A stretch of 64,000 nucleotides of DNA from the human T2T-CHM13v2.0 reference genome, Homo sapiens. The translations under genes were made by a program, and so were the position numbers. The stretch lies in assembly GCF_009914755.1 (NCBI RefSeq), contig NC_060938.1; one strand, given 5' to 3'. The stretch's first letter is position 1; the number at the start of each line of letters is the position of its first letter. Positions 48,389 to 54,695 of the stretch are shown piece by piece. Below the pieces are notes generated by a model that was not told where the DNA came from, searched no databases, and saw nothing but the letters and a program-made list of their open reading frames with translations.

Positions 48389-48520
48389 CTTCGGAGATTT
48401 GATGTCACTGGTATTCACAAAAATAGCATTACAGCTCTGGCTTGGAGCCCCAATGGAATGAAATTGTTCTCTGGAGATGACAAAGGCAAAATTGTTTATT
48501 CTTCTCTGGATCTAGACCAG
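48389..48520 (+). CDS. TECPR2: TECPR2 exon 4, LRRFDVTGIHKNSITALAWSPNGMKLFSGDDKGKIVYSSLDLDQ (WD40 blade)
   Basis: Long pyrimidine tract then catag|, donor CAG|gtaaaa, 132 nt. Classic WD40 pattern H..SITALAWSPNG..LFSGDDKG.I. Confidence 0.96.
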
Positions 48521-49622: not shown

Positions 49623-49888
<266 letters not shown>

Positions 49889-50189
49889 TAGAGATAGTGT
49901 TTCACCGTTTTAGCCAGGATGGTTTCAATCTCCTGACCCTGTGATTGAAATCTCCCACCTCAGCCTCCCAAAGTGCTGGGATTACAGGCGTGAGCCACTG
50001 CGCCTGGCTGAAATTTAAAAATATTTTACTTTGAAATAATAAATCCATAACATCTGCACATAAGTGACATATTTTGTGAAAATATCTCTATAGCTCTATT
50101 TTCAAAACAGGTGAGAAGAGTGAGTGGCATTGATTTATATTTTTACAAATTTCTTTATTATCTGGCTTAATAGAAGATGGCTGGATTCT

Positions 50190-50410
50190 CCCTAATCTCA
50201 AGTAATCAGGGACACAAACACTGCGGAAGGCCGCAGGGTCCTCTGCCTAGGAAAACCAGAGACCTTTGTTCACTTGTTTATCTGCTGACCTTCCCTCCAC
50301 TATTGTCCCATGACCCTGCCAAATCCCCCTCTGTGAGAAACACCCAAGAATTATCAATAAAAAAATAAATTAAAAAAAAAAATAAAAAATAAAAAATAAA
50401 AAAATAAAAA
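50190..50410 (+). mobile_element. 5'-truncated SVA (SINE-R 3' end, SVA_F-like) with its A-rich tail
   Basis: CCCTAATCTCAAGTAATCAGGGACACAAACACTGCGGAAGGCCGCAGGG...CACCCAAGAATTATCAATAAAAAAATAAATT. Left TSD AGAAGATGGCTGGATTCT at 50172-50189. Confidence 0.93.
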
Positions 50411-51189
50411 CACACCTCACCAAGCTCAGCCACCAACTTAAAAAGGACTGGACAATACTTTTACCACTTTCCCTTCTCAGAATTCAGGCCTGTCCTCGGA
50501 ATGCTACAGGGTACAGCCCATTTGAGCTCCTGTATGGATACTCCTTTTTGTTAGGCCCCAGTCTCATTCCGGACACTAGACCAACTTAGACTGTGCCCCC
50601 CCTCAAAAAAAAAAAACTTGTCATCCCTACTATCTTCTGTCTAGTCATATTCCTATTCACCATTCTCAACTAACTCATACATGCCCTGCTCTGGTTTACA
50701 CTGCCGGTTTACACTGTTTTTCCAAGCCATCGCAGCTGATATCTCCTGGTGCTATCCCCAAACTGCCACTCTTAACTCTTGAAGTAAATAAATAATCTTT
50801 GCTGGCAGGACTGTGCTGAATCTCCTTAGGCACTCTCTAATCAGATATCCTGAGTCGTCCCAATTCTTAGACCTTTTATACCTGTTTTTCTCCTTCTGTT
50901 ATTCCATTTAGTTTCTCAATTCATCCAAAACCATATCCAGGCCATCATCAATCATTCTATATGACAAATGTTTCTTCTAACATCCCCACGATATCACCCC
51001 TTACCACAAGACCTCCCTTCAGCTTAATCTCTCCCACTCTATGTTCCCACGCCGCCCCTAATCCTGCTTGAAGCAGCCCTGAGAAACATCGCCCATTCTC
51101 TCTCCATACCACCCCCCAAAAATTTTTGCCGCCCCAACATTTCAACACCATTTTGTTTTATTTTTCTTATTAATATAAGAAGGCAGGAA
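50411..51189 (+). mobile_element. HERV-H internal 3' segment (integrase end / env-deleted region / PPT), transduced by the SVA
   Basis: HERV-H-like sequence (acacacctcaccaagctcagccaccaactt...cccatttgagctcctgtatgga...) ending in a purine tract directly before the LTR. Confidence 0.88.
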
Positions 51190-51599
51190 TGTCAGGCCTC
51201 TGAGCCCAAGCCAAGCCATCACATCCCCTGTGACTTCCACGTACGTATACGCCCAGATGGCCTGAAGTAACTGAAGAATCACAAAAGAAGTGAATATGCC
51301 CTGCCCCGCCTTAACTGATGACATTCCACCACAAAAGAAGTGTAAATGGCCTGTCCTTGCTTTAAGTGATGACATTACCTTGTGAAAGTCCTTTTCCTGG
51401 CTCATCCTGGCTCAAAAAGCACCCCCACTGAGCACCTTGCGACCCCTGCCCCTGTCCACCAGAGAACAACCCCCTTTGACTGTAATTTTCCATTACCTTC
51501 CCAAATCCTATAAAACGGCCCCACCCCTATCTCCCTCTGCTGACTCTCTTTTCGGACTCAGCCTGCCTGCACCCAGGTGAAATAAACAGCCATGTTGCT

Positions 51600-51600
<1 letters not shown>
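51190..51600 (+). mobile_element. LTR7 (HERV-H LTR), U3+R only, followed by poly(A) 51601-51632 and the right TSD 51633-51650
   Basis: Starts TGTCAGGCCTCTGAGCCCAAG. TATAAAA at 51509-51515, AATAAA at 51581-51586, then poly(A). U5 is absent. Confidence 0.92.
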
Positions 51601-51635
<35 letters not shown>

Positions 51636-52052
51636 AGATGGCTGGATTCTGCATTCAATCTGTTGCCATACATTGTTTTGATTGAAGTGTATAAAGAAAA
51701 ACTGGCTTTACACAGACATGTAGTTGGAAATGGGAGGAGTATTTTGATAGCCTTTTCAGATAGTTGTGGACATTCTTTAATAATATCCTCATATGACTAC
51801 CTCATAAAGCAAATGGTAGTTGCTTTAAAGGTTACGGTGACAAATGACAAATGGTAGTTTCTTTAAAGGTTAGTAAAAATGTGGAATCTGAAACCACATG
51901 GATGAATTTTTCCTACTCTGTTACATTAAAATCTACTTTACCCATGTTGGATTTTGTAACATTATGTATTGGTCACTTAGAAAATACTATTCACAGAGTG
52001 ATGCAGATCTTCCAAATGTTGACACTTTTTTTTTTTTTTTTTTTTTTTTTGA

Positions 52053-54537: not shown

Positions 54538-54695
54538 GGGCTCTGTAACTCCCAGCTGGTGTTGGAGGAGCCATCTTCCATTGTGCAGCTGGATTATAGC
54601 CAGAAAGTGCTGCTGGTCTCTACTCTGCAAAGAAGTCTGCTCTTTTACACTGAAGAAAAGTCTGTAAGGCAAATTGGAACACAACCAAGGAAAAG
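54538..54695 (+). CDS. TECPR2: TECPR2 exon 5, GLCNSQLVLEEPSSIVQLDYSQKVLLVSTLQRSLLFYTEEKSVRQIGTQPRK
   Basis: Acceptor actttctctgccag|, donor AAG|gtaagt, 158 nt, open in the exon 4 frame, ends in phase 2. Confidence 0.94.

What the first reader, a model, noticed from the sequence alone, without database searches (positions are those of the whole stretch)
50172..51650. SVA_F-like insertion carrying a 3' transduction of HERV-H internal sequence plus LTR7 U3-R
Seen: an 18-bp TSD (AGAAGATGGCTGGATTCT, 50172-50189 and 51633-51650) encloses, in order, ~180 nt of SVA SINE-R, an A tail, ~780 nt of HERV-H internal sequence, LTR7 from its TG start through TATA and AATAAA, and a pure A32 tail. U5 is absent and there is no retroviral 5-bp TSD. 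Established: L1-mediated TPRT leaves a long TSD plus poly(A), SVAs transduce 3' flanks, and LTR7 is a pluripotency-active promoter/enhancer. Inference: a source SVA inside a HERV-H provirus read through to the 3' LTR poly(A) site, so an LTR7 regulatory module was moved by L1 machinery with no retroviral step. The intact TSD, pure A tail and SVA_F-like diagnostics suggest a young, possibly human-specific or polymorphic event. Annotation tracks would probably show three unrelated repeats.
Basis: partly seen in the sequence, partly recalled or inferred. Interest (0 to 1): 0.8.

Follow-up and report, generated by a model that had tools for sequence, protein, structure and literature searches.

The report
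SVA copy carrying HERV-H LTR7 transduction
A young SVA jumping element in an intron of the human gene TECPR2 dragged along 1.2 kb of an old endogenous retrovirus, including its stem-cell-type promoter, from a source on chromosome 3; the copying mechanism is well known, so the case is tidy rather than new.

Summary
An exact 18-bp target-site duplication (50172-50189 and 51633-51650) encloses 168 nt of SVA 3' end, a 52-nt interrupted A-rich tail, 780 nt of HERV-H internal sequence, LTR7 U3-R without U5, and a pure poly(A) tail.

The predicted donor exists. On chr3 of the same assembly, a full-length SVA with its own TSD sits inside a two-LTR HERV-H provirus. It is followed by the same A-rich tail and the same 1.19 kb, which there runs on into U5. 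Outside the tails, copy and donor differ at 2 of 1,359 positions, both CpG transitions.

That SVA is already catalogued as a fixed SVA_F source element with non-reference offspring (PMC12593883 supplement). Two more offspring lie in this genome, on chr2 and chr11. The moved LTR and the donor provirus are both listed as LTR7up1, the subfamily transcribed in pluripotent cells (PMC8912925 supplement).

The mechanism is a textbook SVA 3' transduction. I found no paper linking the two catalogue entries. Human-specificity and enhancer function are inferred, not shown. Interest is moderate.

The parts
50172..50189 (+). 5' copy of the 18-bp target-site duplication AGAAGATGGCTGGATTCT
   Evidence: identical to 51633-51650
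50190..50357 (+). 5'-truncated SVA: the last 168 nt of the SINE-R region, ending in the SVA's own AATAAA (50354-50359)
   Evidence: no differences from the chr3 donor SVA over this stretch; 40 of 40 scored genome matches cover it, which marks it as an SVA 3' end.
50358..50409 (+). Interrupted A-rich tail inherited from the donor SVA (AATAAAA-type units)
   Evidence: TRF; one substitution against the donor (50390) and no length difference.
50410..51189 (+). Transduced HERV-H internal sequence, 780 nt: the 3' copy of the donor SVA's TSD, then the pol/integrase C-terminal remnant through to the polypurine region
   Evidence: listed as HERVH-int plus LTR7up1 'truncated' at hg38 chr14:102410504-102411706; a weak integrase-core match just upstream of the SVA in the donor.
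51190..51601 (+). LTR7 (LTR7up1) U3 and R, from TGTCAGG to the R/U5 boundary. U5 is missing. The 8-bp string AAAAGAAG occurs at 51283-51290 and 51333-51340.
   Evidence: the donor continues into U5
51581..51586 (+). LTR7 poly(A) signal AATAAA, 14-15 nt before the cleavage site that was used
51602..51632 (+). Pure poly(A) tail added to the read-through transcript
   Evidence: A run 51601-51633
51633..51650 (+). 3' copy of the 18-bp target-site duplication

Best explanation
This is one L1-mediated (target-primed reverse transcription) insertion of a read-through transcript from a known SVA_F source element. The source lies in sense orientation inside the pol/integrase region of an LTR7up1-type HERV-H provirus at 3p12.3 (T2T chr3:78,635,944-78,644,209).

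The proposed sequence of events is as follows.
1. Transcription ran past the SVA's own AATAAA and its A-rich tail.
2. It continued through 780 nt of HERV-H internal sequence and the 3' LTR.
3. The RNA was cleaved and polyadenylated at the LTR7 R/U5 boundary.
4. It was reverse-transcribed into intron 4 of TECPR2, in the sense orientation of the gene.
5. Severe 5' truncation left 168 nt of SVA, and an 18-bp TSD formed.

Shown here: the donor-copy relationship, the poly(A) site used, the TSD, the truncation, and several siblings from the same source.

Inferred: the use of L1 proteins; a date after the human-chimpanzee split, because the donor is SVA_F and the copy is almost identical to it; and any enhancer or promoter role of the relocated LTR7up1.
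For: - Whole-genome search with 50380-51600: 40 of 3,115 candidates were scored. Two of the 40 are 100% matches over the full query, namely the window and chr3:78635989-78637209. The other 38 are 93-95% and lack the first 25 or more nt.
- BLAST of the window against the chr3 locus: 1,419 nt aligned (window 50189-51607), 5 mismatches, no gaps. Of the 5, one is in the A-rich tail and two are where poly(A) replaces U5. That leaves two CpG transitions, at 51091 and 51564.
- In the donor, the SVA continues 5' through SINE-R, VNTR and the Alu-like part to G+(CCCTCT)n. It has its own TSD, AAAAACACACCTCA.
- The host provirus has 450- and 456-bp LTRs that are 96.06% alike, a 5-bp TSD (ATATA), and a primer-binding site complementary to tRNA-His.
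- Published tables list the donor as an SVA_F source that is fixed, present in GRCh38 and T2T, and has the same TSD. They also list offspring that carry its flanks (PMC12593883 supplement).
- Further offspring in this genome: chr2 with a 27-nt 3' transduction and a 14-nt TSD, and chr11 with a 19-nt 5' transduction.
Against: I found nothing that contradicts the mechanism. Several points remain open.
- The target site (bottom strand TTCT/AT) matches the recalled L1 endonuclease consensus at only 4 of 6 positions.
- Human-specificity rests on the published SVA_F label and on low divergence, not on an ape empty site.
- The SVA_F label was not re-derived here, because no subfamily consensus was available.
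- Only one human assembly was searched.
- No functional data were seen for the copy itself. In the published table the donor provirus is scored RNA 0 in hESC.
Confidence: 0.95

Rival explanations
1. Template-switch chimera. L1 reverse transcriptase began on a polyadenylated HERV-H RNA and jumped to an SVA RNA, joining two unlinked transcripts.
For: The layout (SVA end, A tail, second sequence, A tail) is what such chimeras look like. A template switch involving an SVA is proposed for another case in PMC12593883 (passage seen).
Against: The junction already exists as contiguous genomic DNA in the chr3 donor. That includes the same 52-nt interrupted A-rich tail and the donor SVA's TSD copy. The chr2 sibling carries the same junction with only 27 nt of flank.
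Confidence: 0.02
2. Two independent insertions. An L1-made retrocopy of HERV-H RNA (LTR7 U3-R plus poly(A)) landed first, and an SVA fragment later landed directly upstream, or the reverse.
For: L1-type copies of the HERV-H 3' end do exist. There are 41 genome places with the LTR7 R end followed by poly(A), against 0 in the control. Two of them have clear TSDs.
Against: One TSD pair encloses everything, and no second pair was seen. Junction and tail are identical to the donor's. None of the other R-poly(A) copies exceeds 95% identity to the window.
Confidence: 0.02
3. DNA-level copying from chr3, by segmental duplication or gene conversion, rather than retrotransposition.
For: Near-identity to chr3 over 1.4 kb.
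Against: Homology starts inside SINE-R and stops exactly at the LTR7 cleavage site. There it is replaced by about 32 A's, and the whole is flanked by an 18-bp TSD. No flanking chr3 sequence is shared.
Confidence: 0.01

Closest known systems
SVA-mediated 3' transduction (L1-driven read-through retrotransposition; described in PMC12593883, PMC9311842 and PMC10681720, passages read; Xing 2006 and Damert 2009 recalled only, not held)
   Same: An SVA 3' end with its own A tail, then flanking donor sequence, a second poly(A), a long TSD and 5' truncation. The donor is identifiable from the flank.
   Different: The transduced flank is itself a retroviral fragment ending at a retroviral poly(A) site, so a near-complete LTR7 (U3-R) was relocated. 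Only 168 nt of SVA remain, so it is close to an 'orphan' transduction.
Catalogued SVA_F source element chr3:78582482-78584298 (GRCh38, 3p12.3) and its offspring SVA_Chr7_221 and SVA_Chr11_336 (PMC12593883 Tables S2, S4, S7, S8; supplement rows seen)
   Same: Same source locus, same TSD, same HERVH-int flanks.
   Different: The published offspring are non-reference insertions with short transductions: a 52-nt 5' one, and a 3' one reaching about 13 nt into the flank. The TECPR2 copy is a reference insertion with a 1.19-kb 3' transduction. It is not mentioned in that paper's main text (TECPR2 and LTR7 gave 0 hits) or in the supplement search.
HERV-W processed pseudogenes made by L1 (PMC5016936, PMC5537654; abstracts and passages read)
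   Same: A retroviral 3' end (U3-R) followed by poly(A), no U5, an L1-type TSD, and no retroviral integration step.
   Different: Here the retroviral RNA segment rode as the 3' flank of an SVA transcript rather than as a retroviral transcript of its own. The family is HERV-H, not HERV-W.
LTR7up1 HERVH elements (PMC8912925; abstract, passages and supplement rows read)
   Same: The window's LTR and the donor provirus are both listed as LTR7up1. The 8-bp string that the paper found necessary for promoter activity in iPSC occurs in the window LTR.
   Different: The window copy was not made by retroviral integration and lacks U5, the 5' LTR and the HERVH leader. It is far younger than the 10-14 My wave the paper gives for the subfamily.

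Membership tests
SVA 3' transduction (L1/TPRT product) | One long TSD encloses the SVA part and the non-SVA part together | tested here: met
   18/18 at 50172-50189 and 51633-51650; no inner pair reported
SVA 3' transduction (L1/TPRT product) | The non-SVA part is contiguous with a source SVA's 3' end at another locus | tested here: met
   chr3 donor: 1,419 nt, 5 mismatches, 0 gaps, and the A-rich tail is included
SVA 3' transduction (L1/TPRT product) | The transduced part ends in poly(A) just downstream of a poly(A) signal | tested here: met
   AATAAA at 51581-51586, cleavage at 51600/51601, A run to 51633
SVA 3' transduction (L1/TPRT product) | The source SVA is full-length with its own TSD | tested here: met
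   G+(CCCTCT)n 5' end; AAAAACACACCTCA on both sides. Table S8 gives TSD TAAAAACACACCTCA.
SVA 3' transduction (L1/TPRT product) | Target site resembles the L1 endonuclease consensus (recalled as TTTT/AA on the nicked strand) | tested here: inconclusive
   Window site reads TTCT/AT on the bottom strand, 4 of 6. The chr2 sibling reads TTTT/AG.
SVA 3' transduction (L1/TPRT product) | An empty site with one TSD copy in an outgroup or another haplotype | not testable with these tools
   Only the window's own assembly could be searched
SVA_F subfamily | Subfamily-diagnostic positions in SINE-R | not testable with these tools
   No subfamily consensus was at hand. The label F is taken from PMC12593883 Tables S4 and S8 for the donor and its offspring.
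HERV-H provirus (donor) | Primer-binding site complementary to the 3' end of tRNA-His | tested here: met
   The 18-nt site follows the 5' LTR. Its complement with a tRNA T-loop prefix hits 12 places against 0 in the control. In 4 of the 4 loci examined, it is the 3' end of a tRNA-His(GTG) gene.
HERV-H provirus (donor) | Two LTRs and a short integration TSD | tested here: met
   LTRs of 450 and 456 bp, 96.06% alike; ATATA on both sides
HERV-H provirus (donor) | Recognisable pol domains | tested here: inconclusive
   Nine stop-free pieces were scanned. Integrase core gave E=0.003 at 18.2 bits and RVT_1 gave E=0.0078 at 16.4 bits, both below Pfam's cut-offs.
LTR7up1 | Phylogenetic placement by Carter et al., and the 8-bp block-2b insertion | tested here: inconclusive
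   The placement is taken from their supplement 2. The string AAAAGAAG is present twice in the window LTR (motif). I did not establish which copy is the block-2b insertion.
Retroviral integration product (solo LTR or truncated provirus) | A complete LTR (U3-R-U5) with a 4-6 bp TSD | tested here: not met
   U5 is replaced by poly(A), and the only TSD is 18 bp and also encloses the SVA part
Direct processed pseudogene of HERV-H RNA | The 5' end of the insert is HERV-H sequence next to the TSD | tested here: not met
   The 5' end is SVA SINE-R

The most novel reading that the evidence does not exclude
SVA_F and L1 have placed a human-lineage extra copy of a pluripotency-type LTR7up1 promoter/enhancer in sense orientation in TECPR2 intron 4. 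Over U3-R it differs from the donor's 3' LTR at one CpG. On this reading, it acts there as an embryonic-stem-cell enhancer, and the RefSeq enhancer feature 50711-51701 covers it.

There are also 40 other places where the LTR7 R end is followed directly by poly(A). Together these would mean that L1-driven copying is an overlooked route for spreading HERV-H regulatory modules long after HERV-H itself stopped moving. It would also blur the dating of 'young' LTR7 insertions.
Probability: 0.2. Interest if true: 0.6.

Novelty: new member of a known kind. Interest (0 to 1): 0.4.

Why it matters
This is a clean, fully traceable example of regulatory-module shuffling. A promoter/enhancer of the HERV-H subfamily that is active in human pluripotent cells was copied to a new gene by SVA and L1, with no retroviral step, probably in the human lineage.

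It links two published catalogue entries that I did not find connected in print: an SVA_F source element and a 'truncated LTR7up1' element.

It also matters for method. Such copies are counted as HERVH/LTR7 insertions in family-wide surveys although they arose differently and much later. Near-identity to the donor makes short-read ChIP or RNA signal ambiguous between the two loci.

TECPR2 is listed among inherited neurological disease genes (listing only). A sense-oriented insert with several poly(A) signals in its intron 4 is therefore worth a look in transcript data.

Tried and rejected
**Rival mechanisms.** Template switch, two independent insertions and DNA-level duplication were considered and rejected on the donor locus and the single TSD.

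**Search for more siblings.**
- The junction pattern gave 39 hits against 21 in the control. Five were exact: the window, the donor, the chr2 sibling, one chance hit at chr3:97.65 Mb with no SVA or HERV-H, and another HERV-H copy on chr10 with an L1 at the same site.
- Of the 34 one-mismatch hits, only 7 were fetched, and none was a sibling. The other 27 were not examined, so siblings with a mutated junction are not excluded.
- The 40 other LTR7-R/poly(A) places were tested as possible orphan siblings. Of these, 29 were fetched as loci (L030-L058), and none exceeded 95% identity.
- The A-rich tail signature after the SVA end is shared with unrelated SVA copies, so offspring without a transduction cannot be assigned to this source.

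**Donor for the chr6 composite.** No donor was found for the second SVA+LTR7 composite.

**Literature.** Full-text searches for SVA+transduction+LTR7, SVA+TECPR2+retrotransposon, SVA+transduction+HERVH and TECPR2+LTR7 found no paper describing this insertion. Xing 2006 (PMC1693794) and Damert 2009 (PMC2775593), whose reference-genome transduction lists might contain it, are not held. The supplement of PMC10681720 held no matching coordinates.

- Earlier findings of the scan were not open.

**RefSeq enhancer feature.** The attempt to tie it to hESC H3K4me1 tiles of PMC6084406 stayed open. The tile that would cover it is not in the stored part of the file, and the coordinate conversion relies on a recalled hg19-hg38 offset.

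Full report
**1. What is in the window**

- The 18-mer AGAAGATGGCTGGATTCT occurs at 50172-50189 and again at 51633-51650.
- Between the two copies lie, in order:
  - 168 nt matching the 3' end of SVA elements (50190-50357), ending in AATAAA
  - a 52-nt interrupted A-rich tail (50358-50409; TRF)
  - 780 nt of HERV-H internal sequence (50410-51189)
  - an LTR7 from its TGTCAGG start (51190) through AATAAA (51581-51586) to ...GCTCA (51600/51601)
  - a pure A run (51601-51633).
- The insert lies in sense orientation in the intron between the TECPR2 coding exons at 48389-48520 and 54538-54695. That is intron 4 by the hub's table.

**2. The donor**

- A search of the window's own assembly with 50380-51600 scored 40 of 3,115 candidates.
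  - Two of the 40 are 100% matches over the whole query: the window itself and chr3:78635989-78637209 on the minus strand.
  - The other 38 are 93-95% identical and start at query position 26 or 46. They are ordinary HERV-H copies without the A-rich junction.
- BLAST of the window against the chr3 locus aligns window 50189-51607 in one block of 1,419 nt, with 5 mismatches and no gaps.
- Read on the minus strand, the chr3 locus shows an SVA that continues 5' of the window's truncation point through SINE-R and the GC-rich VNTR, on to the Alu-like part and a G+(CCCTCT)n start.
- This SVA has its own duplication. AAAAACACACCTCA precedes the hexamer repeat and follows the A-rich tail.
- Downstream, the same 780 nt and the same LTR follow. 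There the LTR runs on for 44-45 nt of U5 before unrelated flank begins.
- In the window, poly(A) replaces U5 exactly at that point.

**3. The host of the donor is a HERV-H provirus**

- The 3' LTR (456 bp) has a 450-bp partner 7.4 kb upstream. The two are 96.06% identical over 457 columns, with 10 mismatches and 4 gap openings.
- Both ends of the provirus are flanked by ATATA.
- The 5' LTR is followed, after two T's, by an 18-nt primer-binding site.
  - The complement of this site, with a tRNA T-loop prefix, hits 12 genome places against 0 for the control.
  - In all 4 loci examined, ARAGORN calls a tRNA-His(GTG) gene ending at the match.
- Stop-free pieces just upstream of the SVA give only weak Pfam hits, below the curated cut-offs: integrase core E=0.003 and reverse transcriptase E=0.0078. 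The placement of the SVA 'after the integrase core remnant' is therefore tentative.

**4. Divergence and age**

- The three-way alignment shows how the 5 BLAST mismatches break down.
  - One is in the A-rich tail (50390).
  - Two are where poly(A) replaces U5.
  - Two are real substitutions: 51091 (window G, donor A) and 51564 (window T, donor C). Both are CpG transitions.
- That is 2 differences in 1,359 non-tail positions (168 + 1,191), with no indels.
- With recalled human substitution rates of 0.5-1 x 10^-9 per site per year, this suggests roughly 0.7-1.5 million years. The Poisson range is wide, up to about 5 million years. This is an inference, not a measurement.
- The donor provirus is much older, with about 4% divergence between its LTRs.

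**5. What is in print**

- The supplement of PMC12593883 (Mob DNA 2025; rows seen) lists a source element at GRCh38 chr3:78582482-78584298. It is at 3p12.3 on the minus strand, subfamily F, present in GRCh38 and T2T, 'Fixed', with TSD TAAAAACACACCTCA and one non-reference offspring.
  - Offspring SVA_Chr7_221 (in an RNF216 intron) carries a 52-nt 5' transduction that equals the donor's upstream HERV-H flank read. It also has a short 3' transduction ending ...CACACCTCACCAA, with TE content 'HERVH-int'.
  - SVA_Chr11_336 carries a concatenated 5' transduction from chr3 and chr11.
  - That paper's main text does not mention TECPR2 or LTR7.
- PMC10681720 states that SVA_E and SVA_F are human-specific (passage).
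- The supplement of PMC8912925 (eLife 2022) lists hg38 chr14:102410504-102411706 (+) as 'LTR7up1_chr14_1ltr_int_fr_711', truncated. It lists chr3:78581213-78588918 as a full two-LTR LTR7up1 element.
  - Its table of marks for the donor provirus reads RNA 0, KAP1 1, NANOG 1, KLF4 1, ZNF534 1 and H3K4me3 1.
  - The paper reports that nearly all HERVH transcribed in ESC belong to LTR7up.
  - It dates 7up1 mostly to about 10-14 My ago.
  - It reports that an 8-bp insertion (AAAAGAAG), a predicted SOX2/3 site, is needed for promoter activity in iPSC (passages).
  - That string occurs at 51283-51290 and 51333-51340 of the window. I did not determine which copy is the insertion.
- I found no paper that links the two catalogue entries. 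Two older papers whose lists might contain the event are not held.

**6. Other offspring of the same source in this assembly**

- chr2:203,059,4xx-203,060,026: an SVA truncated at the start of SINE-R, with the same tail signature, 27 nt of the HERV-H flank, about 27 A's and a TSD of AAAGAGTTTTTTCT. It differs from the donor at 4 positions in about 505 nt of SVA.
- chr11:62,267,095: a full-length SVA preceded by 19 nt of the donor's upstream flank, with TSD GCTAACATCC. It fits the intermediate source implied by SVA_Chr11_336.
- The source therefore used at least three different 3' ends: about 13 nt, 27 nt and 1.19 kb into the flank.
- The published chr7 offspring is absent from this assembly. 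No chr7 hit appeared.

**7. Mechanism**

- Shown here:
  - contiguity of the SVA, tail, HERV-H and LTR7 in the donor
  - the end of homology at the LTR7 cleavage site, 14-15 nt after AATAAA
  - poly(A), an 18-bp TSD and 5' truncation.
- Inferred from established knowledge of L1-driven SVA mobilisation (PMC3287187, title and abstract in the listing):
  - the read-through RNA was inserted by L1 ORF2p at a nick on the bottom strand. The sequence there is TTCT/AT, a loose match to the recalled consensus
  - reverse transcription stopped early.
- The three rival mechanisms are each contradicted by the donor locus and the single TSD.

**8. Function**

- Nothing here shows activity of the copy.
- Points in favour of regulatory potential:
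  - the LTR is LTR7up1
  - over U3-R it differs from the donor's 3' LTR at one CpG
  - the hub's table gives a RefSeq 'enhancer' at 50711-51701 that covers the end of the internal part, the whole LTR and 50 nt of flank
  - H3K4me1 ChIP-seq tiles from hESC (PMC6084406 supplement 5; hg19 chr14:102875166-102876156 and 102876157-102877146) end about where that feature starts, if a recalled hg19-hg38 offset is right. The next tile is not in the stored part of the file.
- Points against a promoter role:
  - U5, the HERVH leader and its splice donor are missing
  - the R poly(A) signal lies right after the expected start site
  - the donor provirus is scored RNA 0 in hESC.
- I put an enhancer role in pluripotent cells at about 20%.

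**9. Verdict**

- This is a real and correctly interpreted feature.
- The mechanism is well known and the source element is already catalogued.
- The specific event, a 1.19-kb transduction that relocated an LTR7up1 U3-R into TECPR2, was not found described in print.
- I classify it as a new member of a known kind, of moderate interest.

Noticed in passing
Genome-wide; loci L029-L058 (e.g. L042 = C14:17398448, L043 = C14:33487231): 41 places (0 in the reversed control), including the window itself, have the LTR7 R end followed directly by poly(A). Thirty were fetched, and 26 showed tails of 12-34 nt. Only 2 of 14 short ones gave a clear TSD, of 17 and 13 nt. These look like L1-made retrocopies of HERV-H RNA, yet a review abstract calls HERV-W the sole HERV group mobilised by L1 (PMC5537654).
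   Followed up: partly
L054 = G000:C6:75028194 region, minus strand (L054 1505-1930): A second composite: an SVA 3' end, A13, about 230 nt of LTR7-like U3-R, then poly(A) after the LTR7 signal. No locus with the same SVA/LTR junction was found elsewhere in this assembly. It may be another SVA transduction ending at an LTR7 poly(A) site, or an SVA inserted into an older retrocopy.
   Followed up: partly
L062 = G000:C10:54342681 region, minus strand: In another HERV-H copy (93% identical to the window's), an L1 3' end with an A-rich tail sits at exactly the same TTTT/AAAAACACACCTCA site where the SVA entered the chr3 provirus. This suggests a recurrent L1-endonuclease target inside HERV-H pol.
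   Followed up: no
L081/L082 = G000:C11:62267095-62269700: A full-length SVA of the same lineage with a 19-nt 5' transduction of the chr3 HERV-H flank and TSD GCTAACATCC. It matches the intermediate source implied by a published concatenated transduction.
   Followed up: yes
window 49720-50010: An Alu-like element (GGCTGGAGTGCAGTGG..., in reverse orientation with a leading T run) lies about 160 nt upstream of the insertion. It looks ordinary and was not examined.
   Followed up: no
window 51280-51306 and 51330-51356; also 51308-51325 and 51359-51376: An imperfect 50-nt tandem duplication inside LTR7 U3 (27 nt at 85% and 18 nt at 89%). Each unit carries the AAAAGAAG string discussed for LTR7up.
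   Followed up: no
L026, L027, L028 (C3:131700906, C7:139923509, C11:47254893): Other SVA copies share the same unusual 3' end and tail start as the chr3 source, but with different flanks. This looks like a sub-lineage marker rather than a mark of this source.
   Followed up: partly
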